Notes: generated from the letters alone by a model not told the origin. A stretch of 64,000 nucleotides of DNA from an uncultured Clostridia bacterium (GCA_964402415.1 CAYOCI010000004.1:20346-84345), one strand, 5' to 3'; counted from the stretch's first letter, positions 969 through 59,615 are shown. Numbers and translations are program-made.

Positions 969-3167
969 ATGCAGCTCCTCGAAGGCACCGTTGAACGCAT
1001 CACCTTCCGCAATGACGAGACCCTCTACACCGTAGCCCGCTTCAAGGTGGGGCGGCGTGAGGGTCCTGCTACCATTGTCGGCAACTTCCCCAGTATCAAT
1101 GTCGGCGAGAGCCTGCGCCTCGAGGGCGAGTGGACCACCCATCCAGAGTATGGTCGCCAATTTAGGGTCAACAAAGTCGAGACCATGATCCCGGCCACTG
1201 TCAATGGCCTGGAACGTTACCTGGGCTCCGGGTTGGTCAAGGGGATCGGACCTAAGACGGCCAAGAAGCTGGTCGAGCGCTTCGGTCTCGACATTCTCGA
1301 TATCATCGAACAGGACCCTCGGCGGCTGACCGAGCTACCCGGCATTAGCGTCAGCAAGGCTCAGCGGATCCAGGCCGCCTACCTCGGGCAGAAAGAGATG
1401 AAGGATGTCTTGGTCTATCTGCAGGGGCACGGCATCAGCGCGACGTATGCGGTGAAGATCTACAAACATTACCGTGATCAGACCATGGCGATCGTCCAGC
1501 AGAACCCTTATCGTCTGGCTGATGAGGTCTTTGGGATAGGGTTCAAGACCGCCGACAAGATCGCTCAGCAGCTGGGCGTCGATCCTAGCTCGCCCCATCG
1601 CCTGGCCAGCGGTCTACAATACGTACTTGGTGAACTGGCCAATGAGGGGCATACCTACGTCCCGGAGGCCGAACTGCTGAACCAAGCCGCCGAAAATCTT
1701 GAGGTTGAGGCGCATCTGTTACAGGAGCCCTTGATCCAGCTGGCAGAGAGACGCCAGATCTTCATCGAATCCGACCTCAACGAGCAGCGGGTCTACCTAG
1801 CCCCCTTCCTCTATGCCGAGGCGGGGGTGGCTCGCTTGCTAAGCACCCTGACCCTGGGCCAGCTTCAGTCGACCCAACTCTCACTGGCTGGTATGGAACG
1901 GATGGTGGAAGAGGAGATCGACCAGGCAGAGAAGGTCCAAGGGATCACCTTTGCCCCCGAGCAGCGCGAGGCGCTGCGCCAGGCACTCAACTCTGGCGTG
2001 GTCGTCATCACCGGCGGCCCCGGAACGGGTAAGACCACCATCGTGCGGGCACTCTTGGAACTATATCAGCTCCGTGGGGCGAAGGTGCTGTTGGCCGCCC
2101 CCACCGGTCGCGCAGCTAAGCGCATGACCGAGGCGACCGGCAGGCCCTCGAAGACGATCCACCGCCTGCTGGAGTACAGCTTCGTTGCCGGTGCGGGGAT
2201 GAACTTCGCCCGCAACGAGGAGAACCCTCTGGAGGCCGACGTGGTGATCCTCGACGAGGTCTCCATGGTCGACCTGCTCCTCATGTACAACTTCCTGAAG
2301 GCGCTACCGCCGTCCTGCCGCCTAGTTCTAGTCGGCGACCGCGACCAGCTACCATCCGTGGGCGCAGGCAACGTGCTGAAAGATATCATCTCCTCTGAGA
2401 CCATCCCCACTGTTACCCTGAAGACTATCTTCCGTCAGGCGCAACAGAGCATGATTGTGGTGAACGCCCACCGTATCAACCAAGGCGAGTTCCCCCTGCT
2501 CAACGACCGCCAGGCTGACTTCTTCTTCATGGAAGAGGAGACCCCCGAGAAGGCGCTGCCCCTGATACTTGACCTGTGTGCTCGGCGGCTGCCTGCCTAT
2601 GCCAAGGTTGACCCGCTGGACGGGATCCAGGTCCTAGCGCCCATGCGTCGCGGGGCTGTTGGAGTGGAGACGCTCAACCATGAGCTACAGCAGGCGCTGA
2701 ACCCGGCCGATGCCCGCCGGAAGCCAGAGCTTAGGGTAGCTGGGACGGTTTACCGTTTGGGCGATAAGGTGATGCAGATCCGCAACAACTACCAGAAGAA
2801 TGTCTTCAACGGCGATATCGGCCGCATCTCTCAGATCGATGACGAGGAGGGTGAGCTGACCGTCGATTTCCCCGAGGCTGAAGGGGTGCACCGCGTCAGC
2901 TATGAGCTGACGGATTTGGACGAGTTGGTCCTCTCCTACGCGGTCTCCGTTCACAAGAGCCAGGGGAGCGAGTATCCCGTGGTGGTCATGCCGGTCATGA
3001 CCCAGCACTTCATGATGCTGCAGCGCAATCTGCTTTACACCGGCATCACCCGCGCCAAGCGTCTGGTGGTCCTGGTCGGCAGCAAGAAGGCGCTAGCCAT
3101 CGCGGTGAGTAACAATCGCGTCGCTGAGCGCTATTCGCGCCTAGCGGAGCGACTGCGATTGAATTAA
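969..3167 (+). CDS. recD2: ATP-dependent RecD-like (RecD2) SF1B DNA helicase
   Basis: N-terminal LEGTVERITFRN, HhH region (GIGPKTAKKLVERFG), Walker A GGPGTGKT, DEVSM, YAVSVHKSQGSEY; GGAGG RBS before ATG 969. Confidence 0.95.
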   Translation: MQLLEGTVERITFRNDETLYTVARFKVGRREGPATIVGNFPSINVGESLRLEGEWTTHPEYGRQFRVNKVETMIPATVNGLERYLGSGLVKGIGPKTAKKLVERFGLDILDIIEQDPRRLTELPGISVSKAQRIQAAYLGQKEMKDVLVYLQGHGISATYAVKIYKHYRDQTMAIVQQNPYRLADEVFGIGFKTADKIAQQLGVDPSSPHRLASGLQYVLGELANEGHTYVPEAELLNQAAENLEVEAHLLQEPLIQLAERRQIFIESDLNEQRVYLAPFLYAEAGVARLLSTLTLGQLQSTQLSLAGMERMVEEEIDQAEKVQGITFAPEQREALRQALNSGVVVITGGPGTGKTTIVRALLELYQLRGAKVLLAAPTGRAAKRMTEATGRPSKTIHRLLEYSFVAGAGMNFARNEENPLEADVVILDEVSMVDLLLMYNFLKALPPSCRLVLVGDRDQLPSVGAGNVLKDIISSETIPTVTLKTIFRQAQQSMIVVNAHRINQGEFPLLNDRQADFFFMEEETPEKALPLILDLCARRLPAYAKVDPLDGIQVLAPMRRGAVGVETLNHELQQALNPADARRKPELRVAGTVYRLGDKVMQIRNNYQKNVFNGDIGRISQIDDEEGELTVDFPEAEGVHRVSYELTDLDELVLSYAVSVHKSQGSEYPVVVMPVMTQHFMMLQRNLLYTGITRAKRLVVLVGSKKALAIAVSNNRVAERYSRLAERLRLN

Positions 3168-3587
3168 GAATTAAGAATGCAGAATTAAGAGTTGGAGAAC
3201 GAGGGCAGTGATGAGCGACAACGTTATCCGGGATAAGAGCAAGGGCTTTGCTCTTAGGGTGATAAAGCTGTATCAGTATCTGAATGAGGAGAAACACGAG
3301 TATGTCCTGTCTAAACAACTGCTGCGTAGCGGAACGAGCATTGGGGCAAATGTCCGTGAAGCAACAAGAGGACAATCAAAACCGGACTTTTACGCCAAGC
3401 TCCATATCGCACTGAAAGAAGCGGATGAAACAGCCTATTGGCTTGAACTGCTTCATGAAAGCGGGTACATGGATGACAAAACCTTTGCCAGTATCAACGC
3501 TGACTGCAACGAGCTGATGTCCATACTCGTTGCCATCCTAAGAACCAAGCACTCCAATTCTTAATTCTTCATTCTTAATTCTTAATT
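3161..3587. mobile_element. Candidate small element: four-helix-bundle gene flanked by 36-bp inverted heptamer (GAATTAA)n arms
   Basis: Left arm 3162-3197 and right arm 3552-3587 are reverse complements with 2 mismatches; the interior looks more AT-rich than the flanking genes. Mobility is inferred. Confidence 0.6.
3208..3564 (+). CDS. Four helix bundle protein (TIGR02436 / 23S rRNA IVS / Avd-like family)
   Basis: 118 aa with family motifs KSKGFALRVIKLY, SKQLLRSGTSIGANVREA, KLHIALKEADETAYWLELL. Confidence 0.92.
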   Translation: MMSDNVIRDKSKGFALRVIKLYQYLNEEKHEYVLSKQLLRSGTSIGANVREATRGQSKPDFYAKLHIALKEADETAYWLELLHESGYMDDKTFASINADCNELMSILVAILRTKHSNS

Positions 3588-4899: not shown

Positions 4900-5217
4900 A
4901 TGAAGATCTCCAACAACCAGACGAACAAGATCCTGTCACTTTACACCCAACAGAGCCAGGCTGCTGGGGCTAAGGGCAAGGCAACCGATGCTGGAGCTAC
5001 GGCAAAGCCTGCCGGCCAGCGTGATGAGTTGGTGTTATCTGATCGCGCCCGGGAGATCCAGCTAGCCATGAGGACGGCCAAAGCCTCGCCAGATATCCGC
5101 GAAGAACGGGTGCGGGCGATCAAGGAGCAGATCCAGAGCGGCACCTATTCAGTGCCTGCCGAGGATGTTGCTCGCATGATGCTAGATCGAGCCATGGCTG
5201 ATAGACGGGTGGAGTAG
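4900..5217 (+). CDS. flgM: Anti-sigma-28 factor FlgM
   Basis: DELVLSDRA, DIREERVRAIKEQIQSGTYSVPAEDVARMM; GAGGTGA RBS. Confidence 0.9.
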   Translation: MKISNNQTNKILSLYTQQSQAAGAKGKATDAGATAKPAGQRDELVLSDRAREIQLAMRTAKASPDIREERVRAIKEQIQSGTYSVPAEDVARMMLDRAMADRRVE

Positions 5218-5221
5218 AGGG

Positions 5222-5737
5222 ATGCCCATGTTGAAACAGAACCCCATGGAGCAACTGATATCGATATTGACAGGGCAGCGTGATTGTTACGCTGCTCTTT
5301 TGGGATTAGCTGAGCAGAAACACCAAGCCATCATCGAGGAGAACCTCAAAGGGATCGAGCATAGCGTTGAGCAGGAGCAAGCGCTCATCGGAACGCTCGG
5401 TCGGATGGAGCGTGAGCGGGCGGCGCTAGCTGATGAGATCGCCGCTTACTTGCAGATACCCATCGACCAGCTCAATGTAACGTCCGTACTCGAGCGAGTG
5501 GATCCCTTCACGCGTCGAGTGCTAATCGGTCTCCGTGATCAGATCGTCAGTGATCTGGAGCGTATCGATGCGCTCAGTCAGACCAATGGCGGACTACTTG
5601 AGAAGGCACTCCGCCGAGTCAACCGTTCGATGCAGATACTGGGGGTCAACGCTCAGCAGCCAAACACATATCGGCCCAAGACGCAGCCAACCAACCAACA
5701 GCAAACTAAGACCAGCCTGTTTGATCGCAAAGTCTGA
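5222..5737 (+). CDS. flgN: FlgN family flagellar export chaperone (copy 1)
   Basis: Helical ~170 aa, LAEQKHQAII, N..LL..AL..VN pattern; directly after flgM. Confidence 0.75.
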   Translation: MPMLKQNPMEQLISILTGQRDCYAALLGLAEQKHQAIIEENLKGIEHSVEQEQALIGTLGRMERERAALADEIAAYLQIPIDQLNVTSVLERVDPFTRRVLIGLRDQIVSDLERIDALSQTNGGLLEKALRRVNRSMQILGVNAQQPNTYRPKTQPTNQQQTKTSLFDRKV

Positions 5738-5836
5738 TGAGACACCAGACACTAGACACTAGAAGTCACGAAACCCGAAGGACCACTTGCATGCTTGTGG
5801 ACTTGTGTTCTTGTGGACTCCAGAGGAGTGAAGCCC

Positions 5837-6316
5837 ATGTCTCCGTGGCAAGAACTCACGACCATACTCGCCAATGAGCTGCCCATTCTCGACGCGCTGG
5901 CCCAGATTGGCGAGCGCAAACGAGACGCCATGCTGAGCGATGATCTCTCCCTGATCGATGAGGCTGTAGCCCAAGAAACGGCGCTGCTGAAGCGGCTACA
6001 GGACGAGGAAACGCGTGTGATCGGCGTGGTGGCAAGGCTCAAGCCGCTGATAAAGAGCGATCAGTTGCCTGATCTGATCGCCTCAGTCCACTGCCCCTGC
6101 CCCGACGAGCTGTATCGACTCTACGAGCAGGTGGTGGGAGCGGTCTCTGCGCTCAAGAGTGTTACCCAGCAGAACCAGGCGCTAATCAAACAGTCCTTGG
6201 ATTACGTTGGTCTGACCGTCAAGACCATGATGGGGAAGGCCGAGAACCCAGGCTATACCGCCAAGGGTGTTCAATCCACAGCCAACCCGAACCGCCGACT
6301 TGACTTCCGCGCCTGA
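5837..6316 (+). CDS. flgN: FlgN family flagellar export chaperone (copy 2)
   Basis: GERKRDAML, QQNQALIKQSLDYV, C-terminal GYTAKG...RLDFRA; GAGGAG RBS. Confidence 0.7.
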   Translation: MSPWQELTTILANELPILDALAQIGERKRDAMLSDDLSLIDEAVAQETALLKRLQDEETRVIGVVARLKPLIKSDQLPDLIASVHCPCPDELYRLYEQVVGAVSALKSVTQQNQALIKQSLDYVGLTVKTMMGKAENPGYTAKGVQSTANPNRRLDFRA

Positions 6317-6418
6317 ATCATCTGTTCGCTGCGTTCCTTTTCTCCCCCAATTCCCGATTCATCACTCCCAATTCTTGATTCTTTATTCTGAATTCTTAAT
6401 TTGATCGGGGTGACCACC

Positions 6419-7867
6419 ATGCGATCGACCTTTTTTGGCTTTGAGGCAGCGCGCAAGGCCTTGATGGCTCAACAGCGCTCCTTAGATGTGACCTCACACA
6501 ATATCGCCAATGCCAATACCGACGGCTACTCTCGTCAGCGAGCTGAGTTGACAACTACGACACCTTACACCATCCCCGGGATGAAGGGGCAGATTGGTTC
6601 TGGCGTCGAGGTCAGCACTGTTGTCCGTCTGCGTGAGGAGTTTGCTGACTTTCAGTTCCGCGCTGAGAACCAGGCGCTGGGCAAGTGGGAGACCTACTCC
6701 CAAGCCCTGGAGCGTGTCGAAGGGATCTTTGCCGAGCCAACTTCATCCGGGTTGAAGCAGGCCATCGGCGAGTTCTTCAACGCCTGGCAGGAGCTCAGCA
6801 AAGACGGTGGCAACGAGACCGTTCGCGCTCTGGTTAGGCAGCGCGGTATCGCCATGACCGATATGTTCCACCATCTGAATCGTCAGTTGGATGAGACCCG
6901 GGTCGACCTTAACGAGGGGATCGCACTGGCGGTCAAGGATATCAATGGCATCGCCGACCAGATCGCCTCGCTCAATGGTCAGATCTACAACAGCGAGCTG
7001 ACAGGCTACACCGCCAATGACCTGCGCGATCGCCGCGATCTGCTGGTGGACAAGCTCTCCAGTTTGGTCAACGTTCGTGTCCAAGAGGACAATGGCCAGT
7101 ACTCCGTGCTGGTAAGCGGCACCCGCATCGTCAGCCACACCTCTGTGGTCCACATGGAGGCGGTGCCGATCACCAGCGGGGATGAGGCCGGCTCAGGGAT
7201 GTTTGAACTGCGCTGGGTGAACGAGATTGGTGCCAGTGGTTCCGGGGCGCTTGTTCAGGTCACCAGTGGCCAGCTCTCGGGCTACCTGGAAGTTCGTAGT
7301 GACATTCGCACCAAGTACATGGCTGAGCTGGACAACCTCGCCAAAGCCATGGTCCAAGACCTCAATGCCCAGCATGGCCAAGGCTCAGCCTATGTGAACG
7401 GTGCCTGGACCACGGGTATTGACTTATTCGATCCCAGCACCCTGTCAGCCAAGACCATCAAACTCACCGACGATATCTTGGCGGACAAGACCGGCCTAGC
7501 CTATATCGCCGCCGCTGTCACCCCGACCGATGGCAGTACCCCCGTCCGCGGCGACGGCGGCAACGCCCTTGCTCTCGCCCAGCTCCGCCATAACCGCGGT
7601 CCGAGCAAAGATACCTTTGAGCATATGTATGAATCCATGCTCGGAACCCTCGGCGTCCAAGCCCAATATGCCAACCGCCTGACCGAGAACCAAACCTTCC
7701 TCACCGAGCAGCTGCAACACCGCCGTGAGTCCGTCTCCGGCGTCTCGCTGGATGAAGAGATGACCAATATGATCAAGTTCCAGCATGCCTATAACGCTGC
7801 CGCCCGCGTTACCACCGTCATGGACGAGGTGCTCGACACCCTGATCAACCGTCTCGGAGCGAGATAA
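6419..7867 (+). CDS. flgK: Flagellar hook-associated protein 1
   Basis: SHNIANANTDGYSRQRA; C-terminal SVSGVSLDEEMTNMIKFQHAYNAAARV. Confidence 0.97.
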   Translation: MRSTFFGFEAARKALMAQQRSLDVTSHNIANANTDGYSRQRAELTTTTPYTIPGMKGQIGSGVEVSTVVRLREEFADFQFRAENQALGKWETYSQALERVEGIFAEPTSSGLKQAIGEFFNAWQELSKDGGNETVRALVRQRGIAMTDMFHHLNRQLDETRVDLNEGIALAVKDINGIADQIASLNGQIYNSELTGYTANDLRDRRDLLVDKLSSLVNVRVQEDNGQYSVLVSGTRIVSHTSVVHMEAVPITSGDEAGSGMFELRWVNEIGASGSGALVQVTSGQLSGYLEVRSDIRTKYMAELDNLAKAMVQDLNAQHGQGSAYVNGAWTTGIDLFDPSTLSAKTIKLTDDILADKTGLAYIAAAVTPTDGSTPVRGDGGNALALAQLRHNRGPSKDTFEHMYESMLGTLGVQAQYANRLTENQTFLTEQLQHRRESVSGVSLDEEMTNMIKFQHAYNAAARVTTVMDEVLDTLINRLGAR

Positions 7868-8092
7868 CCAATTTGATGTAGGGGCGCCGCCATGCAGCGC
7901 CCGCCATATGGTCTATCGATCACACCACTGAGGGCTGCTCTGTGTCCTGGTGGTATGGCGCTCCACTGCTTGTGGACATGTGAACTTGTGTTCCTGTGGA
8001 CTGTTGGGTCCACTCATCCTACCCTCATCCTTCACCCATAGCCCTTACTGTGGGCTGTGGGCTGCGGGCTGCGGGCAATAGCGGAGGCACTT

Positions 8093-8986
8093 ATGCGCGT
8101 CACCAACTCCATGCTCACCGATGGCTTCATGCGCAACCTGCGCACTAATCTCCAAGGCCTGGACGAGATCCAACGCAAGCTCTCCTCGAAAAAGGAGGTC
8201 AGCCGCCCGTCGGATGATCCTGTCCGTCTGCAGCAGATTCTGAATCTCGATACATCCCTCGACCAGACCGAGCAGTTCCTGCGCAATATCGATAACGCCT
8301 CATCCTATCTCGCCACCACCGAAGGGGCGCTTAGCCAAGCCATGGCTCTGCTCTCCCGTGCTAGTGAATTGGGCACTCGCAGCCTCAACGGCACCAACAA
8401 CCAAGAGGCCATGGAGGCCACCGCCCAAGAGATCAAGCAACTCCTCGAACAGCTGGTCGAGGTGGCCAATACCACCCATACCGGACGCTATGTTTTCGCT
8501 GGGACCGATACATCCACCAAGCCGTACACCATCAGCAGCTTGGCGGTGACCGCCGAGTCCGAAGCGCCTAACGGCAAGATCGAGTATGAAGTCGGTCCAG
8601 GGGTGAAGATGACCATCAATGTCACCGGCCCAGAAGCCTTCGGTGATGGGGCAGACAGTGCCTTTACCGCTCTCCAAGAGCTTGCCGCTGCCATGAGCGC
8701 GGATGATAAGACAGCCATTAGCGCGGCCACGGAGAAGCTGACGATGGCCAGCGACAAGCTGCTGACCTCCCGCACCGACCTGGGAGCGAGGGTGAACCGC
8801 CTGGAAGCGACGGAAGATCGCTACCAGGAAGACCTAATCAATATCAAAGAGCTAAAGTCCAAGTCCGAGGATATCGATCTCGCCAAGGTGATCATGGATC
8901 TGAAGACCCAGGAAAGCGTTTACCAGGCCTCGCTGGCCGCCGGTGCGCGGATCATCCAACCCAGCTTGGTTGACTTCCTACGCTGA
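8093..8986 (+). CDS. flgL: Flagellar hook-associated protein 3
   Basis: MRVTNSM, SRPSDDP, GRYVFAGT, YQASLAAGARIIQPSLVDFLR. Confidence 0.96.
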   Translation: MRVTNSMLTDGFMRNLRTNLQGLDEIQRKLSSKKEVSRPSDDPVRLQQILNLDTSLDQTEQFLRNIDNASSYLATTEGALSQAMALLSRASELGTRSLNGTNNQEAMEATAQEIKQLLEQLVEVANTTHTGRYVFAGTDTSTKPYTISSLAVTAESEAPNGKIEYEVGPGVKMTINVTGPEAFGDGADSAFTALQELAAAMSADDKTAISAATEKLTMASDKLLTSRTDLGARVNRLEATEDRYQEDLINIKELKSKSEDIDLAKVIMDLKTQESVYQASLAAGARIIQPSLVDFLR

Positions 8987-9612: not shown

Positions 9613-9740
9613 CCTGCGTTTGCGCTCTCTTCGCTGCGCTACGTTCGCGCTGGGCGTATGCATACGCCCCTATGTGAAGAACTGCATAATGCGATGCGCT
9701 ACGGTTGAATTAATTGTAGGGGCGTATTGCATACGCCCGC
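9613..9740. repeat. REP doublet (REPIN-like), family A, copy 1
   Basis: gggcgtatgcatacgcccctat...gtaggggcgtattgcatacgcccgc with a conserved ctgcgtttgcgct leader; homologs at 49023-49151 and 58120-58246. Confidence 0.85.
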
Positions 9741-9905
9741 GACGACCTAGGGTCGTCCAAACGCATCACAGACCTAATCCACACCTGGTCGGTGTGGATT
9801 TCTCATACATCGCTCCGAACTCCGCAGGTCCCTGCTCAGATCCCCCACTTGTGGACATGTGGACTTGTGTTCTTGTAGACTCTTAACCGACAGGAGGTCT
9901 CCCCC

Positions 9906-17098: not shown

Positions 17099-17373
17099 GA
17101 GTCCTCGCCCCTCGTAGGGGTACGTAGGGACTAATACGCACGCAGAAGTCCGTCCACCGTTTTGGTGGGCGGTCTTTTTTGTGCGTAAGTAAAGGATTGG
17201 TGCCAATCGCAGAGAATATGGGAAACGACAAGAATCTAGGCATCAGTCGAGCAAACGCCGTATTCGTTCCACGTCCCCACTCGCGTCAGATTACCCGGGC
17301 GCTGCATGGCGGCGCCCGCAATCGAGGCCTTCTTTGATTGACTCACGAGGGGCGAGGGACGAGGGGCGAGGGT
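17099..17373. repeat. Inverted CCCTCG/CGAGGG heptamer pair enclosing the hpf terminator
   Basis: gtcctcgcccctcg at about 17101-17114 and cacgaggggcgagggacgaggggcgaggg at about 17344-17372; terminator gtccgtccacc...ggtgggcggtcttttt at about 17146-17180. Confidence 0.75.
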
Positions 17374-18514: not shown

Positions 18515-18632
18515 CGCGAAGCGCGGCCGAATGGAGTCCACAGGAACACAAGTCCACGAGTCCACAGCAGATATGGCGACGAAAGAACAAGGAATCAGGT
18601 AACAACGGGGTCAAACCCCGTTGTTACCTAAC

Positions 18633-25804: not shown

Positions 25805-25990
25805 CCACGTCATTCCTTGGTTGCCCAGCCCGAAGGCATCAGGCATCAGCTGGGGGAAAATACGGCCATCGGCCGCAGTTGGTCAGACTTGCCTGACTCC
25901 ACTCGCGCCCAGTCCCACCCGTATTTCTACCGTTGATCTCTGATGCCTGATGCCTGATGGCTTCGGGCACCGACGTAAGGAGGCATCGCC

Positions 25991-26490: not shown

Positions 26491-26992
26491 GAGTCCCTCG
26501 CCCCTCGTCCCTCGCCCCTCGTGAGAATGTCGAATAAGGCGTGGTTCAGGAAGATTGAAAGCCCGGAACTACTAGGGATTGCGGGCGCAGCATGGCTGCG
26601 CCCCTACATGTTGAGGTATCTCCCTGGGTCGTAGGGGCACGGCCATGCTGCGCCCGCGGCCTTTCGTCGGTCTCCCTAGTGGGAGAGACGGAGAAGTTGA
26701 GGAGCGCTACCGTGATTCGCAGAGCCGCCGATGGGCGGCTCTTTGCGTGTACATCAGAGCTAAATCTGACAAGCTTCGCCACATGTGGTAAAATGGCAGG
26801 AGTGTAAGCGGTGGTTTGGCCCTGCCAAGAGAGGAAATCATTCTCGTGGTTAGAATATAAGTAGGGATTTCGCGGTCCCAAGCCTGGTAGCGCTGCTACA
26901 TTGCACGTAGGGCAGGGCAGGTTTTGAAGCCCAGTGTCCAGCTACCAGTTCCCAGTGTTCTCACGAGGGGCGAGGGACGAGGGACTAGGGAC
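26491..26992. repeat. Inverted CCCTCG/CGAGGG heptamer pair enclosing a REP doublet, a terminator-like hairpin and a promoter
   Basis: agtccctcgcccctcgtccctcgcccctcgtgag versus ctcacgaggggcgagggacgaggggactagggac. Confidence 0.8.
26766..26794 (+). promoter_or_regulatory. SigA-type promoter for the cell-wall polymer locus
   Basis: CTGACA-N17-TAAAAT with TG at the extended -10. Confidence 0.6.
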
Positions 26993-31090: not shown

Positions 31091-32232
31091 TGGCTAGGGT
31101 TGTTATCTCGGGTTATTACGGTTTCAACAACGTGGGTGACGAAGCTATCCTGATCGCCATGAAAGAGGCACTGCTGCGTCAGGAGCCCAATCTGGAGATC
31201 ACAGTGCTCTCCGCCAACCCCCAGTTGACCGAAGACCAGTACGGGCTCCGCTCGATCGGCAGGGCCGACCTGTTCCCCATTCTCAAAGCCCTGCGCGAGG
31301 CAGATCTGTTGATCAGCGGTGGTGGCAGCCTGCTGCAGGATGTCACCAGCCACCGCAGTCTGCGTTATTATCTAAGCATCATGACCTTGGCCCGGATGGT
31401 TGGCTGTCCTGTGATGCTCTATGCACAAGGGATCGGCCCGATCCGCAATGGTTATAACCGCTGGCTGACGGGGGTGGTTCTGAACCGCGCCTCGTTGATC
31501 TCGGTCCGAGACGCTGCCTCTGCCGAGGAACTCCGCAGTCTGGGTGTCCTGCGTCCCCCGGTCCATGTCACCGCTGACCCTGTTGTGGCACTGCCACCGG
31601 CCAACCATGAGGTGGGAGCCGAGATCCTGCGGCAGGCGGGGGTTGAACTTGGGGGAGATGCTCCCCTGATAGGCGTTTCCGTGCGTGCCTGGCCTGGCCG
31701 TGAGCGCTTCACCACCGAGGCGGCCGAGGCGTTTGATCGGCTTATTGAGAATGAAGGCGTCCGCTTAGTCTTCATCCCAATGCATTTCCCCGAGGACCTG
31801 GAGATGACCAATAGCCTCCGGCGGGTGATGCGCCACGGGGACCAGACCAAAGTGCTCTGCAATCGCTACCACGCCCAAGAACTGCTCAGCGCTGTGGGAC
31901 ACCTGGACCTGCTGGTCGCGGTTCGGCTTCACGCTCTCATCTTTGCGGCCGTGATGAACGTACCAGGCGTGGCGATCAGCTACGACCCGAAGGTCGATCG
32001 TTTCGCTGACCTGGTCGGTCAGCCAATGGCAGGCAGCATGGAGCAACTCTCCGGAGACGAGCTCTACCGCGGCATGTCGGAGACCTTGCGCAACCGTCTC
32101 GCGATCAAGCAGCAGCTCGCCACCACGGTGGCCGACCTACAGGCCTCCGCCCTGGAGAATGCGCGCTTGGCAGCAGGGCTGCTGCGCGGCAGAAAAGACA
32201 CCAGACACCAGACACCAGAGGGCAGGTGCTAG
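31090..32232 (+). CDS. csaB: Polysaccharide pyruvyl transferase CsaB
   Basis: VVISGYYGFNNVGDEAIL, SGGGSLLQDVTS, YAQGIGP, SVRD, VTADPV, RLHALI, YDPKV. Confidence 0.95.
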   Translation: MARVVISGYYGFNNVGDEAILIAMKEALLRQEPNLEITVLSANPQLTEDQYGLRSIGRADLFPILKALREADLLISGGGSLLQDVTSHRSLRYYLSIMTLARMVGCPVMLYAQGIGPIRNGYNRWLTGVVLNRASLISVRDAASAEELRSLGVLRPPVHVTADPVVALPPANHEVGAEILRQAGVELGGDAPLIGVSVRAWPGRERFTTEAAEAFDRLIENEGVRLVFIPMHFPEDLEMTNSLRRVMRHGDQTKVLCNRYHAQELLSAVGHLDLLVAVRLHALIFAAVMNVPGVAISYDPKVDRFADLVGQPMAGSMEQLSGDELYRGMSETLRNRLAIKQQLATTVADLQASALENARLAAGLLRGRKDTRHQTPEGRC

Positions 32233-32413
32233 AAGAGACACCAGAGGGAAGACACCAGAGATCTGGTGAGACCCTCCGATGTAAGTTATCAGATGGGATT
32301 CTGGGACGCGGGAGTTGTCAGGTACCTGGATGCCGGTCGTTGTGTGGCGTGGCCCCACTTCTTCTGGTGCCCGGTGTCTGCCCTCTGGTGTCTCTCAACG
32401 GACGGTGAGTCAT

Positions 32414-33148
32414 TTGTCCAAACAAGCCAACATACTCGGCTACAAAGTAGATAATGTCACCATGGACGAAGCGCTGCAGCGCGTAGAACAGTACATACAG
32501 AAGAGGCAGCCGCGTCATCTCGTCACCATTAACCCCGAGATCATCATGTCGGCCGCGACCAACGATGAGCTACACAGAGCTCTGAAGAAGGCGGACCTGG
32601 TGGTTCCCGATGGCTCTGGTGTGGTCTGGGCCTCGCGGTATACCGGGCAGCCGCTGCCGGAGAGGGTAGCGGGCTACGACCTGATGCAGCGGATGTTGGC
32701 TCTGGCAGCAGAGAAGCGGTATCGGGTCTTTCTGCTCGGGGCAGCTCCTGGAGTGGCAAAGCAGGTAGCGCTGAGGATCACCGAACTCTATCCAGGCTGC
32801 ACCATCTGTGGGACGCAGGATGGATACTTCAAAGACGAAGAAGAGGCGGCTGTGGTGGCGACCATCGCGCAGTCGGGCGCTGACATGCTTTTCTGCGCTC
32901 TGGGTCCGCCTCGTCCGGCCGAGATTTGGGTCCAACGGCACCTCAGCACTCTCAACATCCCTGTTTCCATGGGGGTAGGGGGGAGCTTCAACGTTATGGC
33001 CGGCATCATCAAACGCGCCCCTGTCTGGATGCAGAAGATCAACCTGGAGTGGCTGCATCGGGCGCTATCTGACCCCAAGCGCATTAAGCGCTTGGCAGTG
33101 CTGCCGAGGTTCGTGATGAAGGTGGTTAGATCTAGAATTAAGAATTAA
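32414..33148 (+). CDS. tagA: WecB/TagA/CpsF family N-acetylmannosaminyltransferase
   Basis: LVTINPE, VPDGSGVVWA, ERVAGYDL, FLLGAAPGVA, GVGGSFNV, NLEWLHR; start codon approximate. Confidence 0.93.
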   Translation: MSKQANILGYKVDNVTMDEALQRVEQYIQKRQPRHLVTINPEIIMSAATNDELHRALKKADLVVPDGSGVVWASRYTGQPLPERVAGYDLMQRMLALAAEKRYRVFLLGAAPGVAKQVALRITELYPGCTICGTQDGYFKDEEEAAVVATIAQSGADMLFCALGPPRPAEIWVQRHLSTLNIPVSMGVGGSFNVMAGIIKRAPVWMQKINLEWLHRALSDPKRIKRLAVLPRFVMKVVRSRIKN

Positions 33149-33286
33149 GAATGAAGAATTAAGAGTTAGGAATTGGGAGTACATAGAATTGAGAACTGCG
33201 ATGATGAGGAACATGACTGCTGCGTGTCCGCAGGGGTCTTCCGGTCATCCTGGTATTCTTAATTCTTCATTCTTAATTCCTAATTC
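33135..33286. repeat. Inverted GAATTAA/TTAATTC heptamer pair without a cargo gene
   Basis: 33135-33167 matches 3161-3193 with one mismatch; right arm 33255-33286 ends just before the transketolase RBS. Confidence 0.9.
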
Positions 33287-33303
33287 GAAACGGAGGTTTC
33301 GTT

Positions 33304-34110
33304 ATGTCTACCGAACTCGCTGGGAAGGCGAAAGAGATTAGGCGCTGGATTCTTAAGTCCATTACCGAGGCGAAATCAGGCCATCCGGGTGGATCGCTCT
33401 CCATCGCGGATATCATGGCATCCCTCTATTTCAAGGTCATGCGGGTGGATCCGCAGAACCCCAGCTGGCCCGATCGCGACCGCTTTGTGCTTTGTAAAGG
33501 TCACGCAGCTCCTGCGCTCTACGCGACCTTGGCGGTGCGCGGCTTCTTCCCCACCGAAGAGATGCTGACTCTGCGTAAGATCGACTCCCGCCTGCAGGGG
33601 CATCCCGACATGAAGAAAGTCCCGGGAGTGGATATGTCCACTGGCAGTTTGGGGCAAGGTCTCTCCACCTGCGTTGGCATGGCTCTCGCTGCCCGCCTTG
33701 ACAAGAAGGACTATAAGGTCTATGGCATTCTCGGCGATGGCGAGGTTCAGGAGGGTCAGGTCTGGGAGGCGGCCATGGCTGCTGGTCACTATCAGTTGAA
33801 CAATCTCATCGTCTTCCTGGACAACAACGGGCTGCAGATCGATGGTCCTGTCCAGAAGGTGCTTTCGCCTCTGCCTTTGGTGGAGAAGTGGCAGGCCTTC
33901 AACTGGAATGTCATCGAGATCGACGGGCACGATCATCAGCAGATCCTCGCTGCTATAGAACAGGCCCAGCAATGCACCGACAAGCCGACCCTGATCAATG
34001 CCAAGACCATCAAGGGCAAAGGGGTCTCCTTCATGGAAAACCGGGCCGAGTGGCATGGCAACGCCCCCAGCCGTGAGCAGCTGGAGCAAGCGCTACAGGA
34101 GCTCCAGTAG
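33304..34110 (+). CDS. Transketolase, N-terminal (TPP-binding) subunit
   Basis: SGHPGGSLS, DRDRFVLCKGHAAPALYA, LQGHP, STGSLGQG, GDGEVQEGQVWEA. Confidence 0.96.
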   Translation: MSTELAGKAKEIRRWILKSITEAKSGHPGGSLSIADIMASLYFKVMRVDPQNPSWPDRDRFVLCKGHAAPALYATLAVRGFFPTEEMLTLRKIDSRLQGHPDMKKVPGVDMSTGSLGQGLSTCVGMALAARLDKKDYKVYGILGDGEVQEGQVWEAAMAAGHYQLNNLIVFLDNNGLQIDGPVQKVLSPLPLVEKWQAFNWNVIEIDGHDHQQILAAIEQAQQCTDKPTLINAKTIKGKGVSFMENRAEWHGNAPSREQLEQALQELQ

Positions 34111-34428
34111 GAGTTCCTGAGTCCCTAGTCTCAAGTCCCTAGTTCCTAGTGGGCGACGGAGAATGTGGGGGTCGCCTGCTGGCGACCCGTGGGAGGGCAG
34201 ACCATCGCAGCATGGCTGCGAGGCTACACCCTCCCCTGCAGACGCCCCTGTTGTTACCCTCGAGACAACGGGATTACAGGTGAGTTGGTTGTAGGGGCGG
34301 GTTTCAAACCCGCCCGTGGAGTGGCGCTTGAGCGCCATGGCTCTCGGCTCTCTCTGGTACCGCCTCGCGGTAGACCACTTATGACTCATGACTTATGACT
34401 CTTGACTCTCCTGAAAGGAGTACTTACT

Positions 34429-42293: not shown

Positions 42294-42521
42294 GGGCCCG
42301 CGGCCCACAGCCCGCCGCCCACAGATAGAGAAACGTTGGACCGAACCGAGTTCCTGAACTTCGCTACCTGACCGACGGGCCACCCCAGAGTGGTCCGTTG
42401 TCGTACTGAGGGTTGGTAGTTAACAGCTCATGGATGCGCAATAGCTCCAACTCGCTCGGCCATACTCCGCTCACTGCGGGCTGCGGGCTGCGGGCTGCGG
42501 GCTTGTGGAAGGAGGGTTACG

Positions 42522-49022: not shown

Positions 49023-49151
49023 CCTGCGTTTGCGCTTTCTCCGCTGAGCTCCGTGCGCGCGGGCGTATGCGATACGCCCCTACAAGGATGGCCCACTTGA
49101 CTTGTAAATGATCAGTCGATTCGCTCGTAGGGGCGCATTGCATACGCCCGC
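49023..49151. repeat. REP doublet, family A, copy 2
   Basis: gggcgtatgcgatacgcccctac...gtaggggcgcattgcatacgcccgc. Confidence 0.85.
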
Positions 49152-49370: not shown

Positions 49371-52268
49371 ATGTCCAAAGACAAAATCATCATCAAAGGT
49401 GCGCGGCAGCACAACCTGAAGAATATCGACCTGGAGCTGCCGCGCGATCAGCTCACCGTCATCACGGGGCTGAGTGGCTCGGGTAAGTCGTCGCTGGCTT
49501 TCGACACCATCTACGCTGAAGGGCAGCGCCGCTATGTCGAATCGCTGTCGGCGTATGCGCGCCAGTTTCTAGGACAGATGGATAAGCCAGACGTAGATTA
49601 TATCGAAGGGCTCTCGCCCGCCATCTCGATCGACCAGAAGACCACCAGTAAGAACCCTCGGTCGACGGTGGCGACGGTAACAGAGATCTATGACTACCTG
49701 CGCCTGCTCTTTGCTCGCATTGGCCACCCCCACTGTCCGAACTGCGGCAACGAGATCAGCCAGCAGACGGTCGAGCAGATGGTTGACCAGGTGATGACGC
49801 TCCCAGAGCGTACCCGCATCCAGGTGCTTGCTCCGCTAGTGCGTGGGCGCAAGGGCGAGCACCAGAAGGTCTTCGAAGATACCCGCAAGGATGGCTATGT
49901 GCGCGTGCGCGTCGATGGCCAACTGCGTGAGGTCACTGAAGAGATCAAGTTGGAGAAGAACAAGAAACACTCCATTGAGGTCGTCGTCGACCGTATCGTG
50001 ATCAAGCCGGAAGTCGCTCAGCGTTTGGCTGACTCCATTGAGACCGCCATCAAGCTGAGCGGTGGCTTGGTCATCATCGATATCATCGACCAGGACGAAT
50101 GGCTGTTCAGCAGTAGTTTCGCTTGTCCGGACTGCGGCTTCAGCTTTGAAGAGATCTCGCCGCGTATGTTCTCCTTCAACAGCCCTTGGGGTGCATGTCC
50201 GGACTGCACGGGCCTTGGGGTCAATATGGAGATCGACCCCGATCTGATCATCCCGGATCGCAGCCGCTCGATCACCGATGGTGCCATCGATCCCTGGTCC
50301 AGCTCTACCAGCAATTACTATCCACAGATGTTGGAAGCTTTATCGAAGCACTATGACTTCAGCCTGAATACCCCGGTGGACGAGCTGCCAGATGAAATTG
50401 TGCAGGTTATTCTGTACGGCAGCGGTGATCAGAAGATACGTTTCCACTACGAGAACCCATATGGGCGCCAGGCAACTTATGATGCGCGCTTCGAAGGGGT
50501 GATTAGCAATCTCAACCGCCGGTATAAAGAGACTCAGTCTGAGTACATGAGGGAAGAGATCGAGCAATACATGAGCACTAAGCCTTGCCCTACCTGCCAG
50601 GGCGCCCGCCTGAAGAAGGAAGTGCTCTCTGTACTAGTCGCTGGGCGCAATATTGCTGAGGTCAGCAAGTTCTCGATCATTGACGCGCTCAGCTTCTTCC
50701 GTGCACTGACCCTGACCGATCGTGAGAGGATCATTGGCAAGCAGATCCTCAAGGAGATCAATGAACGCCTGGGCTTCTTGGTCAACGTGGGGCTAGACTA
50801 CCTGACCCTCAACCGTGCGTCAGGGACCTTGTCTGGCGGCGAGGCGCAGCGTATCCGCCTGGCCACACAGATCGGTTCCAGCTTGGTGGGTGTGATCTAT
50901 ATCTTGGACGAGCCCAGTATCGGTCTGCATCAGCGCGACAACACCCGTCTGCTTGAGACCTTGAAACGCTTGCGTGATCTGGGCAACACGCTCTTGGTGG
51001 TCGAGCACGATGAGGAGACCATGTGGACCGCCGACCATATCGTTGATATCGGACCCGGTGCCGGGTCTAACGGTGGCCGGGTGGTTGCCCAAGGGTCAGT
51101 GGATGATATCATGCGGGTGGAGGAGAGCTGGACCGGACAGTATCTGAGTAGGCGCCGTGAGATTCCGATTCCTGAGGTGCGGCGTCAACCCAATGGTAAG
51201 TGGATCGAGGTACGTGGGGCGCGCGAGAATAACCTCAAGAACCTCAATGCCCGCTTCCCCCTAGGTGTATTTACCTGTGTAACCGGTGTCTCCGGCTCCG
51301 GCAAGAGCAGCTTGGTCAATGAGATCCTGCACAAGAAACTGGCGCATCTCATCCAGCGTGCCCGGGCCCGTGCCGGCGAGCATGATGAGATTATTGGGGT
51401 GGAGTACCTGGACAAAGTGATCGACATTGATCAATCGCCGATCGGGCGCACCCCGCGCTCCAACCCAGCTACGTATACTGGCCTGTTCAATGATATTCGT
51501 GACCTGTATGCTTCCACCAATGAGGCCAAGGTGCGCGGCTACAAGCCGGGACGCTTCAGCTTCAACGTGCGTGGAGGCCGTTGTGAGGCGTGTAAGGGCG
51601 ATGGGATCATCAAGATCGAGATGCATTTCCTGCCCGACGTCTATGTCCCCTGTGAGGTCTGCAAGGGACAACGCTACAGTCGCGAGACCCTGGAAGTCAA
51701 GTATAAGGGCAAGAGCATCGCCGAGGTTCTAGATATGACGGTGGAGGAAGCCCTGGACTTCTTCCAAAACCTGCCGCGCATTCAGCGCAAGGTACAGACC
51801 TTATATGATGTAGGTTTGGGCTACGTGCGCCTCGGACAACCTGCTACCACGCTCTCGGGCGGTGAGGCGCAGCGCGTGAAGTTGGCAACCGAGCTCAGTC
51901 GCCGCAGCAATGGGAAGACGCTCTATATCCTTGATGAGCCGACCACTGGCTTGCATATCGCCGATATCCACAAGCTCCTTGAGGTTCTGCAACGGCTGGT
52001 GGACGCTGGTGACACGGTACTGGTGATCGAGCACAACCTCGATGTAATCAAGACCGCCGACCATATCATCGACATGGGCCCCGAGGGGGGCGACCGCGGC
52101 GGACAGATCGTTGCGGTGGGCACTCCCGAGCAGGTGGCCGAGGTGGCCGAGTCTTACACCGGCCAGTATCTGAAGAAGGTGCTGAGTGGGGAAGGGTTCT
52201 CTAAACAGCCCACAGCCCACAGCCCACAGCCCACAGTGGGGGCGACGGGAGAGGACGACGATCTATAG
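49371..52268 (+). CDS. uvrA: Excinuclease ABC subunit A
   Basis: [28 protein letters not shown] twice, [10 protein letters not shown], Zn fingers. Confidence 0.99.
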
Positions 52269-53594: not shown

Positions 53595-53758
53595 TCCCTA
53601 GTCCCTAGTCCCCAGTCCCTAGTCCCTAGCGGGGAACCTGGACTGCTGAACTCGCGGGCTTACTGCTCATTTCAGAAGTGTCCCGTCTCGATTCGGTGAC
53701 CCTTGGGACCGGTAGTCTTATCTGCCTACTAGGGACTAGGGACCAGGGACTAGGGACT
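53595..53758. repeat. Inverted GTCCCTA/TAGGGAC heptamer pair
   Basis: ctccctagtccctagtccccagtccctagtccctag versus ctactagggactagggaccagggactagggact. Confidence 0.85.
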
Positions 53759-55148: not shown

Positions 55149-55275
55149 CTTAATCTGACTGACAAAGAAACCAGAAACTGACTAGTGACAAACCGTCGCG
55201 GATGCTTTATCATTAGGAATGTCAAAACTACAAAATCCTACGGAACGCGTTAGCGATTGTGTTTTTACCTACAGA

Positions 55276-55457
55276 GAGTTTTCGGGAGCTGGAGTTCCGG
55301 TGGTGCTGATAAGCCTTCACTCGATGCCATGCATTTGAGTCGAAGGAAATCAAAAACCCGACGGACAGGCGCCCACCTGCAAGAGCAGGTCTAAAAACTC
55401 AGTAGCGACGGTTTAGTGGGATAGCGAAAGCCAATGGTGTGAACCATTGGCTTTTTT
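55276..55457 (+). ncRNA. Candidate structured leader RNA ending in an intrinsic terminator
   Basis: Pairings GAGTTTT/AAAAACTC, TCGGG/CCCGA, CCTTCACTC/GAGTCGAAGG, ACCTGC/GCAGGT; terminator aaagccaatgg...ccattggctttttt. Family not recognised. Confidence 0.45.
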
Positions 55458-58119: not shown

Positions 58120-58246
58120 TGCGTTTGCGCTCTCTACGCTGTGCTTTGGTCGCGTGGGCGTATGCAATACGCCCCTACGCAGTGGCCTGCATGCCATCCA
58201 GCGCATACGGTTGAGTTGGTTGTAGGGGCGTATTGCATACGCCCGC
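58120..58246. repeat. REP doublet, family A, copy 3
   Basis: gggcgtatgcaatacgcccctac...gtaggggcgtattgcatacgcccgc. Confidence 0.85.
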
Positions 58247-58356
58247 GGGTCGCCGCGAGGTGACCTAACCGAAACAGGGGACTAATCCTCAGGCGTAGCA
58301 GATGCTTTTTCGACAGCCTCTCCAGTGTCTTGGGTCTGATATGTATCGAGCGCAGC

Positions 58357-59343: not shown

Positions 59344-59615
59344 GCGCCTCGCGAGCTCTCTCGAGCGCGGATGACAAGCTCGGCTGCAGAACCCGATACT
59401 CCGTACCACCACCGGTGGCTGGTGGCTGGTGGCTGTGGACTCGGCCGCAAGGCCGTTGGTCTGTGGACTGTGGTCTGTGGACTCTTTGAACTTGTGGACT
59501 TGTGGTCTTGTGGACTCCACTGTCACAAGGCATACACCTCCATCAGCATTCTTGACCACCTTGAGGATCGGCAAACATAGGCTTCCTTCTGCTATAATGG
59601 GATGGGGGTGATGGC

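What the first reader, a model, noticed from the sequence alone, without database searches (positions are those of the whole stretch)
33135..33286. Gene-less twin of the four-helix-bundle cassette between tagA and transketolase
Seen: the left arm 33135-33167 matches 3161-3193 at 32 of 33 nt and again supplies the upstream stop (tagA ends ...IKN*, recD2 ends ...RLN*). The right arm again ends just before an RBS, but only about 75 nt of non-coding filler lies between the arms. A solo right arm precedes flgK (about 6345-6401). Inference: a filled/empty pair, as with autonomous elements and MITE-like derivatives, or gene loss that left the arms behind.
Basis: partly seen in the sequence, partly recalled or inferred. 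Interest (0 to 1): 0.7.

Follow-up and report, generated by a model that had tools for sequence, protein, structure and literature searches.

The report
Gene-less heptad-repeat hairpin module
A 152-base hairpin whose two arms are mirror-image runs of the 7-base unit GAATTAA sits between two genes of an operon; it is the empty form of a widespread, fast-turning-over package that elsewhere carries the small 'ribosomal-RNA intervening-sequence' protein gene, and this genome is studded with such packages.

Summary
Arms 33135-33164 and 33257-33286 are inverted (GAATTAA)n arrays, 30 nt and 97% complementary. They are near-identical to the arms at 3161-3197 and 3552-3587, which enclose a PF05635/TIGR02436 four-helix-bundle (4HB, S23p) gene.

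- **Arms and gene family.** Inverted 7-nt tandem arrays are the usual packaging of this gene family. In 73 metagenome loci, 58 had complementary flanks, against 0 of 243 controls. Each locus has its own heptad; arrays are about 31 nt long.
- **Gene-less forms dominate.** Among (GAATTAA)n pairs in other bacteria, 34 are gene-less and 5 hold the gene.
- **The window is saturated.** It has 29 period-7 arrays in at least 7 sequence flavours, mostly bracketing intergenic spacers.
- **Relatives at tagA-tkt.** No relative has a gene there. An 84% relative has the same module, a 91% relative has a different-heptad module, and a 60% relative has none.
- **The filler.** It shows no gene remnant. It consists of decayed heptads and a small apical hairpin.

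The closest known element is the 23S rRNA intervening sequence (S23p ORF, heptameric repeats, RNase III excision), here placed in an mRNA.

My proposal is a co-transcribed hairpin cut by RNase III. Cleavage is inferred, not shown, and a DNA-level role is not excluded.

The parts
33135..33164 (+). Left arm of the gene-less module: GAATTAA GAATTAA GAATGAA GAATTAA GA. It contains the tagA stop codon (33146-33148).
33165..33256 (+). Interior ('filler'). Decayed purine-rich heptads lie on the 5' side (GTTAGGA ATTGGGA ...). Decayed pyrimidine-rich heptads lie on the 3' side. A small apical hairpin CTGCG-TGTC-CGCAG sits at 33220-33233. No credible ORF, and no 4HB remnant detected.
33257..33286 (+). 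Right arm (TCTTAATTCTTCATTCTTAATTCCTAATTC), 97% complementary to the left arm. It ends 5 nt before the tkt RBS (GGAGG, 33292-33296); the tkt ATG is at 33304.
3161..3197 (+). Left arm of the filled twin. It contains the recD2 stop codon (3165-3167).
3211..3564 (+). Four-helix-bundle / 23S rRNA-IVS protein gene (117 aa). The stop codon lies inside the right arm. GC is 47% and GC3 55%, against 60% and 72-75% in neighbouring genes. It is covered by RNA contigs in two metatranscriptomes.
3552..3587 (+). Right arm of the filled twin, 94% complementary to 3162-3197. It ends 19 nt before the comFC ATG (3607).
6366..6403 (+). Solo, degenerate right-arm-type array (AATTCTT-like heptads) 15 nt upstream of the flgK ATG (6419). 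No complementary partner within 700 nt. It lies within an RNA contig spanning 6176-6417.
32203..32395 (+). Same class, different heptad (AGACACC / GGTGTCT). This pair brackets the spacer just upstream of tagA, so tagA is flanked by two modules of different flavour.
53595..53758 (+). Same class, different heptad: (TCCCTAG)5 and (ACTAGGG)4.4. Arms are 30 nt and 93% complementary, with 99 nt between them.
26493..26992 (+). Same class, different heptad (CCCTCGY / CGAGGGR). Arms are 35 nt and 94% complementary, with 430 nt between them. The interior holds a REP-like palindrome and no credible gene.
25828..25968 (+). Same class, different heptad (AGGCATC / CTGATGC). Arms are 22 nt and 95% complementary, with 97 nt between them.
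42296..42503 (+). Same class, different heptad (GCCCRCM / CTGCGGG). The pair brackets the spacer between the genes ending at 42293 and starting at 42522.

Best explanation
What it is (shown). 33135-33286 is a gene-less member of a family of hairpin modules. Their arms are inverted tandem arrays of a 7-nt unit, here GAATTAA, about 4-6 units per arm. The same architecture, with the same arm sequence, packages the window's only four-helix-bundle (S23p / 23S-rRNA-IVS protein) gene. Inverted heptad arrays are the normal packaging of that gene family across bacteria.

Where it sits (shown). The module lies exactly between the tagA stop codon, which it supplies, and the tkt ribosome-binding site. (GAATTAA)n carries stop codons in all three frames on both strands. 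The module has no promoter or terminator of its own.

How it works (inferred). It is transcribed within the tagA-tkt mRNA and folds into a roughly 150-nt hairpin with a 30-bp near-perfect basal stem. The closest known relative is the S23p-carrying intervening sequence of 23S rRNA. That element has terminal inverted repeats containing tandem heptamers and is excised by RNase III. By analogy, the stem is most likely an RNase III substrate. Cutting would uncouple the upstream and downstream cistrons and leave tkt with a short leader.

Origin. The module is an inserted, fast-turning-over unit, not an ancient spacer. It is present with a homologous core in an 84%-identical relative, replaced by a module with a different heptad in a 91%-identical relative, and absent from a 60%-identical relative. 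It shares recent ancestry with the arms of the filled cassette. It is undecided whether it lost a gene or spread as an empty hairpin.
For: - **Anatomy.** Searches give the arms, stop codons, RBS positions and folds.
- **Gene identity.** PF05635 and TIGR02436 hits; PDB 2RLD at E 1e-36.
- **Heptad arms are the family's packaging.** Of 73 metagenome loci encoding 51-73% identical 4HB proteins, 64 have a period-7 array on a flank. Flanks are complementary in 58, against 0 of 243 displaced controls. The heptad sequence differs from locus to locus. Array length is narrowly set: median 31 nt, IQR 27-33. Isolates show it too: Nostoc punctiforme pNPUN01 and Treponema saccharophilum pTS1.
- **Spread of GAATTAA arms.** The 22-mer AATTAAGAATGMAGAATTAAGA occurs in more than 119 stretches from many phyla. 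My arithmetic for random sequence of that size gives about 0.1 expected.
- **Gene-less forms dominate.** 34 gene-less pairs against 5 filled.
- **Turnover at orthologous junctions.** Seen at tagA-tkt, recD2-comFC and Zn-ribbon-flgM.
- **Conserved fold.** All three tagA-tkt junction modules fold as closed hairpins.
- **No own promoter or terminator**.
- **Transcription.** RNA contigs cover the 4HB interior, the solo arm before flgK and the right arm before tktC.
- **IVS precedent.** PMC4990558 describes a 28-bp terminal stem, tandem GACAGAT heptamers that vary in number between strains, an S23p ORF and RNase III excision in vitro.
- **Slippage dynamics.** A 14-nt (two-heptad) indel separates strains at 34377.
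Against: - No RNA-end data exist for this hairpin. The metatranscriptomes are held only as contigs and barely cover the tagA-tkt operon. RNA contig ends at the arms (3193-3555) are equally explained by assembly breaking at repeats, because a DNA contig breaks there too.
- Mismatches between arms of 60 4HB cassettes show no excess of G-U over A-C (39 against 55). Nothing points to selection on the sense-strand RNA helix.
- Same-class pairs also bracket spacers between convergent and divergent genes, where one transcript need not contain both arms.
- No target-site duplication and no transposase were seen, so the mode of spread is unknown.
- 138 of 240 (GAATTAA)n arrays elsewhere are solo and cannot form a local hairpin.
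Confidence: 0.55

Rival explanations
1. DNA-level element. The inverted heptad arrays act in DNA, and the RNA hairpin is incidental. They could be terminal repeats of a mobile unit, or hairpin or cruciform sites for recombination or protein binding. The pentameric 4HB protein might be the binder.
For: - No G-U excess between arms.
- Pairs also occur between convergent and divergent genes.
- Modules are swapped at three orthologous junctions between close relatives.
- The cassette is compositionally foreign, with GC3 of 55% against 72-75% in neighbours.
- Array length is tightly set at about 31 nt, roughly three turns of B-DNA.
- Both solved homologues were deposited with 5 chains.
Against: - No target-site duplication.
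- No recombinase or transposase is associated with the cassettes examined.
- Arm orientation is coupled to the direction of the 4HB gene: the left arm is purine-rich in 45 of 52 loci and the right arm pyrimidine-rich in 43 of 48. This suggests a strand-specific, transcript-level constraint.
- The best-studied relative acts as RNA (PMC4990558).
Confidence: 0.2
2. In-situ simple-sequence repeat. The arrays arise locally by polymerase slippage of heptamers, and arm complementarity is kept by quasi-palindrome template switching. There is no mobility, no link to the 4HB gene and no function.
For: - Heptameric repeats are known to be over-represented in bacterial intergenic DNA, including inverted pairs in Xanthomonas (PMC4692102; PMC4679880).
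- Copy number varies between strains.
- Many different heptads occur in one genome.
Against: - The two GAATTAA loci share the same order of variant heptads (32/33 identity).
- The same 22-mer occurs in more than 119 stretches across phyla.
- The association with 4HB genes is tight: 58 of 73 loci against 0 of 243 controls.
- Whole modules, including unrelated interiors, differ between relatives that are 9% apart in protein sequence.
- Array length is tightly constrained.
Confidence: 0.12
3. Relic of an on-site deletion. A full 4HB cassette once sat between tagA and tkt, and its gene was deleted, leaving the arms.
For: - The arms are almost identical to those of the filled cassette in the same genome.
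- L020 shows a truncated 4HB gene between arms 207 nt apart.
- The Coxiella S23p ORF is reported to be undergoing reductive evolution (PMC4990558).
Against: - No remnant is detectable in the filler.
- The 84% relative has the same gene-less module, with extra heptads rather than gene fragments.
- The interior reads as decayed heptads.
- Gene-less pairs outnumber filled ones 34 to 5.
Confidence: 0.13

Closest known systems
23S rRNA intervening sequence (IVS) carrying an S23p ORF (Coxiella burnetii, Leptospira; PMC4990558)
   Same: - The filled twin encodes the same protein family (PF05635).
- Terminal inverted repeats form a stem of about 28-36 bp.
- Tandem heptameric repeats sit in the terminal region and vary in copy number between strains.
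- ORF-containing and ORF-less versions both exist.
- The element is regarded as selfish.
   Different: - It lies between protein-coding genes of an operon, not in helix 25 or 45 of 23S rRNA. Rfam finds no rRNA in the window.
- The heptad is GAATTAA rather than GACAGAT.
- Whole arms are built of heptads.
- RNase III excision is not shown here.
Intergenic heptameric repeats: GGGAATC in Xanthomonas and GGGGAYT in Nostoc (PMC4692102), TAACTGA in Beggiatoaceae, cyanobacteria and Bacteroidetes (PMC4679880), cyanobacterial STRR
   Same: - Tandem 7-nt units.
- Almost exclusively intergenic and close to the end of the upstream ORF.
- Frequent convergent (inverted) pairs in Xanthomonas.
- Length variation between relatives.
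- Function unknown.
   Different: - Those reports describe one dominant heptad per genome and do not link the repeats to S23p/4HB genes.
- This genome has at least 7 flavours.
- One flavour encloses a 4HB gene.
- Flavours are exchanged at orthologous junctions.
MITE-like transcribed hairpin repeats (Correia/NEMIS of Neisseria, ERIC, BOX, RUP), recalled from general knowledge and not tested here
   Same: - Elements of about 100-150 nt with terminal inverted repeats.
- Inserted in intergenic parts of operons.
- Co-transcribed and folding into hairpins. Correia elements are reported to be RNase III substrates.
- Presence or absence varies between strains.
   Different: - No target-site duplication here.
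- No related transposase-bearing parent.
- The arms are internally periodic (7 nt) and come in many sequence flavours.
Avd, the accessory protein of diversity-generating retroelements (PF05635 relatives; PMC10053308)
   Same: Same protein superfamily as the gene in the filled twin: a small four-helix bundle.
   Different: No reverse transcriptase or template/variable repeat pair was seen next to the cassette. The gene-less module has no protein at all.
Integron gene cassettes with attC sites (general knowledge)
   Same: A promoterless small gene plus an imperfect inverted repeat, wedged between a stop codon and the next RBS. Filled and empty sites both occur.
   Different: No integrase, no attC core sites and no cassette array. 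The repeats flank the gene on both sides and are heptad arrays.

Membership tests
PF05635 / TIGR02436 four-helix-bundle (23S rRNA-IVS protein), applied to the filled twin's gene | Profile match above the curated threshold | tested here: met
   PF05635 scores 99.8 bits (cut-off 33.8). TIGR02436 scores 110 bits (cut-off 24). PDB 2RLD matches at E 1e-36.
PF05635 / TIGR02436, applied to the gene-less module 33135-33286 | Encodes such a protein, or a recognisable remnant of one | tested here: not met
   There is no ORF with a family match. The interior has no significant similarity to the cassette interior. An iterative HMM over all window ORFs finds only the 3211-3564 gene.
23S rRNA intervening sequence | Inserted in 23S rRNA (helix 25 or 45) | tested here: not met
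   It lies between tagA (PF03808) and the transketolase N-terminal subunit (PF00456). The Rfam scan finds only 6S RNA in the window.
23S rRNA intervening sequence | Terminal inverted repeats forming a long stem | tested here: met
   The arms are 30 nt and 97% complementary. The fold is -67.4 kcal/mol, z = -7.
23S rRNA intervening sequence | Tandem heptameric repeats at the termini (as described for Coxiella) | tested here: met
   TRF reports period 7 with 5.9 and 4.6 copies. Compare PMC4990558.
23S rRNA intervening sequence | Excision from the transcript by RNase III | not testable with these tools
   Only contig-level metatranscriptomes are available, with almost no coverage of this operon.
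MITE (miniature inverted-repeat transposable element) | Terminal inverted repeats and multiple copies | tested here: met
   Three GAATTAA loci lie in the 64 kb window. Depth spikes of 56x and 75x over the arm, against 8.6x and 5.8x background, appear in two metagenomes.
MITE (miniature inverted-repeat transposable element) | Target-site duplication | tested here: not met
   No direct repeat flanks 23 of the 24 pairs examined; the remaining pair shows a 2-nt match. Arm boundaries are fuzzy, so the test is weak.
MITE (miniature inverted-repeat transposable element) | A related autonomous element encoding a transposase | tested here: not met
   The only cargo found between such arms is the 4HB gene, which has no known transposase function.
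Intrinsic (Rho-independent) terminator | A GC-rich stem followed by a U-tract | tested here: not met
   The stem is AT-rich and is followed by GAAACGGAGG. The only consensus hit, at 33286-33301, overlaps the RBS and start codon and is at the chance level.
Intergenic inverted heptameric repeat pairs (Xanthomonas type, PMC4692102) | Tandem 7-nt units, intergenic, next to the upstream ORF's end, paired in convergent orientation | tested here: met

The most novel reading that the evidence does not exclude
Heptad-armed hairpin modules form one pan-bacterial class of mobile element. Several things would then be faces of this class: the S23p-bearing rRNA intervening sequences, cyanobacterial STRRs, the Xanthomonas GGGAATC pairs, 4HB genes wedged inside cas and other operons, and the gene-less hairpins that saturate operon junctions here. 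The pentameric four-helix-bundle protein would be the element's own factor, reading or maintaining arrays of about 4-5 heptads. Modules would compete for, and replace each other at, the stop-codon/RBS gap of operons.
Probability: 0.2. Interest if true: 0.85.

Novelty: new variant of a known kind. Interest (0 to 1): 0.62.

Why it matters
Three things have each been described separately and left without a function:
- the S23p-bearing intervening sequences of rRNA,
- the very large 'four helix bundle protein' family,
- the over-abundance of intergenic heptameric repeats.

This locus, followed outward, ties them together. Inverted heptad arrays of about 31 nt are the regular packaging of the 4HB gene outside rRNA. 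The same packaging exists far more often without the gene. In this Bacillota lineage such modules occupy most operon junctions and are exchanged between close relatives.

That makes concrete experiments possible on a long-standing puzzle. It also matters for annotation:
- Stop codons and C-terminal residues of flanking genes are donated by the arms.
- Start codons are easily mis-called inside arrays.
- Assemblies break at the arms.

In the searchable literature I found no description linking heptad arms to 4HB genes outside rRNA.

Tried and rejected
- **Rfam, whole window.** Only 6S RNA was found; nothing at either module.
- **Gene remnant in the filler.** Local alignment to the cassette interior on both strands is not significant. 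Small ORFs in the region are overlapping and implausible.
- **Other genes inside other heptad pairs.** The interiors of 26493/26992 and 37161/37631 hold only low-quality ORFs. An iterative 4HB HMM finds no second copy in the window.
- **Promoter or terminator in either module.** None beyond chance.
- **Target-site duplications.** None.
- **G-U versus A-C mismatch test for RNA-level selection.** No signal.
- **Phage or plasmid vehicle.** Only 2 weak phage hits. There are 32 plasmid hits, mostly on large Nostoc plasmids, so the gene is present there, but no dedicated vector is evident.
- **RNA ends from metatranscriptomes.** Only contigs are held. They break at the arms in DNA runs too, so nothing can be inferred about cleavage.
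- **CRISPR, integron attC, DGR and riboswitch readings.** Rejected on anatomy: 7-nt units without spacers, no integrase or core sites, no reverse transcriptase, no Rfam match.
- **L120.** Its apparently 'empty' tktN-tktC junction is identical to L125 for 880 nt and then diverges abruptly. It may be a chimeric contig, so I do not rely on it.

Full report
**1. The observation**

33135-33164 and 33257-33286 are inverted runs of the heptad GAATTAA, 30 nt long and 97% complementary, with 92 nt between them. A 21-nt heptad pattern with up to 3 mismatches hits 12 times in the window and never in 100 shuffles.

The left arm matches 3161-3193 at 32 of 33 positions, with the same order of variant heptads. 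The right arms share 25 identical bases.

Both left arms contain the stop codon of the upstream gene. tagA ends at 33148 and recD2 ends at 3167. Both right arms stop 17-19 nt before the next start codon.

The arms at 3161-3197 and 3552-3587 are 36 nt and 94% complementary. They enclose a 117-aa gene that matches PF05635 and TIGR02436 well above threshold and PDB 2RLD at E 1e-36. Its own stop codon lies in the right arm.

The array before flgK (6366-6403) is a true solo.

Both modules fold far better than shuffles, with z = -7.0 and -6.4.

By direct reading, (GAATTAA)n has a stop codon in all three frames on both strands. This explains why the arms 'supply' stops.

**2. The arms are not peculiar to this cassette: the window is full of them**

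Tandem Repeats Finder and my own scan find 29 period-7 arrays in 64 kb. Shuffles give 0, and periods 4-12 other than 7 give 0-2.

The arrays fall into at least seven sequence flavours:
- GAATTAA
- GCCCGCA / CTGCGGG
- CCCTCGC / CGAGGGG
- AGGCATC / CTGATGC
- AGACACY / CTAGTGT
- GAGTCAT / ATGACTC
- TCCCTAG / ACTAGGG

Typically one array follows the upstream stop codon and its complement precedes the downstream RBS. Together they bracket spacers of about 90-450 nt. Such pairs also occur between convergent and divergent genes.

Only one of these modules holds a gene.

**3. The arms are the regular packaging of the 4HB gene family**

A profile scan of metagenome contigs returned 80 loci encoding proteins 51-73% identical to the window's 4HB protein.

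Of 73 loci with enough flank, 64 have a period-7 array beside the gene. The two flanks are complementary in 58. None of 243 displaced control intervals in the same contigs is complementary.

The heptad differs from locus to locus (GAATTCG, AATTGAC, AGTTGAC, GTAAAGT, TTAAACA, AGGTAAA and others). The period and length do not vary: median 31 nt, IQR 27-33, with 74 of 122 arrays holding 4-5 units.

Relative to the gene's direction, the left arm is purine-rich in 45 of 52 loci and the right arm pyrimidine-rich in 43 of 48.

Annotated isolates show the same thing. The 'four helix bundle protein' gene on Nostoc punctiforme pNPUN01 lies between GTCGGAR and YTCCGAC arrays. A Treponema saccharophilum gene lies between CTCTCCG arrays.

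**4. GAATTAA arms elsewhere, filled and empty**

The 22-mer common to all four arms occurs in more than 119 stretches. They come from Bacteroidota, Clostridia, Patescibacteria, Chloroflexota, Verrucomicrobiota, spirochaetes, proteobacteria and a cyanobacterium. My arithmetic for random sequence of that size gives about 0.1 expected.

Those loci hold 240 arrays:
- 16 tight hairpins (up to 30 nt between arms)
- 18 pairs with 31-250 nt inside, like the tagA-tkt module
- 6 pairs with 251-600 nt inside, 5 of which hold a 4HB gene
- 1 pair with 878 nt inside
- 138 arrays with no partner

L020 keeps a truncated 72-codon 4HB remnant between arms 207 nt apart.

So filled and empty pairs exist widely, empty is the common state, and a decay path from filled to empty is documented once.

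**5. The junction in relatives**

The organism is an undescribed Bacillota lineage from a sludge metagenome. Outside its own small clade, the best matches to its housekeeping proteins are only about 40-72% identical.

Three relatives keep the order PS_pyruv_trans - tagA - tktN - tktC:
- **L126** (TagA 84%, TktN 92.5%) has a GAATTAA module at the same place. It aligns with the window's module over its whole length, including the apical hairpin, and has about five extra heptads.
- **L125** (TagA 91%, TktN 95%, the closest relative) has a module with GCCCACA / CTGTGGG arms and an unrelated interior.
- **L127** (TagA 60%) has an ordinary 116-nt spacer with no heptads.

None has a gene there. All three modules fold as closed hairpins.

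The same flavour swapping is seen at two other junctions:
- **recD2-comFC:** GAATTAA plus the 4HB gene in the window and in a co-occurring strain; a CGAGGGG arm in an 88% relative; AGTCCCA arrays in an 81% relative.
- **Zn-ribbon-flgM:** CCCTCGY in the window against AAAGGCC / TTTGGGC in a relative.

A co-occurring strain keeps the left arm at tagA-tkt but replaces the following 135 nt with 140 other letters. It also differs by exactly two heptads in another array.

The 4HB cassette is compositionally foreign: GC3 of 55% against 72-75% in neighbours.

**6. What the filler is**

It has no significant similarity to the cassette interior. Read in heptad register, the 5' part is decayed GARTTRG units and the 3' part is decayed complementary units. 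They surround a short GC-rich hairpin at 33220-33233, which is conserved in L126 with one compensatory change. The 'filler' is therefore the worn inner part of one long hairpin, not a gene scar.

**7. Mechanism**

Shown:
- The anatomy and family membership of the arms.
- The position between stop codon and RBS.
- The absence of a promoter or terminator.
- Turnover between relatives.
- Transcription of the 4HB interior. It has the highest RNA contig depth of the 2400-8200 region in one metatranscriptome and is present in a second, while recD2 has none.
- Transcription of the solo arm before flgK.

Inferred:
- The tagA-tkt module is co-transcribed.
- Its 30-bp stem is cut by RNase III, as the S23p-bearing rRNA IVS is. 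That element has a 28-bp terminal stem, tandem GACAGAT heptamers of strain-variable number, and RNase III excision in vitro (PMC4990558).

Cautions:
- The contig ends at the arms are uninformative, because DNA contigs break there too.
- There is no G-U excess between arms (39 against 55).
- No target-site duplication was found.
- Many arrays are solo.

A DNA-level role therefore remains a serious rival.

**8. Comparison with what is known**

Heptameric intergenic repeats have been described, including 70-75 inverted pairs in Xanthomonas (PMC4692102). TAACTGA repeats have been described as well (PMC4679880). Neither report links the repeats to 4HB genes.

4HB genes have been noticed wedged between cas genes (PMC3936711) and in CPR rRNA insertions, alongside ORF-less versions (PMC11270868).

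I found no paper describing heptad arms as the general packaging of these genes, or gene-less modules at operon junctions. The library is limited to open-access texts, so an earlier description cannot be excluded.

**9. Verdict**

- The filled/empty reading is partly supported. The transposon/MITE framing and the gene-loss scar are not demonstrated.
- The element is best filed as an IVS-like, heptad-armed hairpin module in an mRNA context. That is a new variant of known kinds.
- It opens onto a wider and more interesting pattern than the single locus.

Noticed in passing
whole window; e.g. 4809-4835, 8048-8076, 17346-17372, 21556-21584/21854-21880, 42296-42324/42474-42503, 52205-52236, 53595-53629/53728-53758: There are 29 period-7 tandem arrays in 64 kb, against 0 in shuffles and 0-2 for other periods from 4 to 12. 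They fall into at least 7 heptad flavours. Most are complementary pairs that hug the stop codon and RBS of neighbouring genes.
   Followed up: partly
26581-26657, 49059-49151, 58153-58247; also about 9650-9760, 28730 and 45410: REP-like palindromes (GTAGGGGCGYATTGCATACGCCCGC and its complement) occur as close inverted pairs inside many of the heptad-bracketed spacers. This suggests nested or mosaic insertions.
   Followed up: no
4846-4880, 5794-5819, 7969-7990, 9847-9881; complement at 18535-18566; 59462-59516: Tandem 8-nt units (CTTGTGGA / TGTGGACT) recur just upstream of flagellar and neighbouring genes. This is a second periodic repeat family with a different unit length.
   Followed up: no
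34111-34428 (tktN-tktC spacer): The spacer between the two transketolase subunit genes is about 300 nt. It has non-matching arms (AGTCCCT-type on the left, ATGACTY-type on the right) and a REP-like element. More distant relatives have 11-32 nt there (L121, L124, L127). One strain differs by exactly 14 nt (two heptads) at 34377.
   Followed up: partly
3193-3555: The 4HB gene interior is the best-covered stretch of 2400-8200 in metatranscriptome X3 (depth 19). It is also present in X5, while the upstream recD2 has no RNA contigs. The cassette RNA may be unusually abundant or stable, but contig depth is a poor measure.
   Followed up: partly
L120 versus L125 (relatives of 33304-34110): The two contigs are 100% identical for about 880 nt and then diverge abruptly about 100 nt before the end of tktN. 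One has a 14-nt tktN-tktC spacer and the other a 275-nt heptad-bearing spacer. This is either recombination at the module or a chimeric contig.
   Followed up: partly
55232-55426: 6S RNA (RF00013, 62.5 bits) was the only Rfam family found in the window.
   Followed up: no
5222-5737 and 5795-6316: Two adjacent FlgN-family genes are separated by a spacer carrying an AGACACY heptad array. They lie in a comFC - Zn-ribbon - flgM - flgN - flgN - flgK cluster.
   Followed up: no
32315-32401 and 53678, 8057, 37258 (ORF starts): Mechanical ORF starts run into heptad arrays. For example, the tagA ORF appears to begin at 32315, but the real start is near 32402, after the right arm of the upstream module. 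Arrays are a source of start-codon mis-calls.
   Followed up: partly
plasmid collection hits: Half of the plasmid records carrying a close 4HB homologue are from Nostoc (16 of 32). Others are from Planktothrix, Dolichospermum and Anabaena. These are the cyanobacteria in which heptameric STRR repeats were first described.
   Followed up: no
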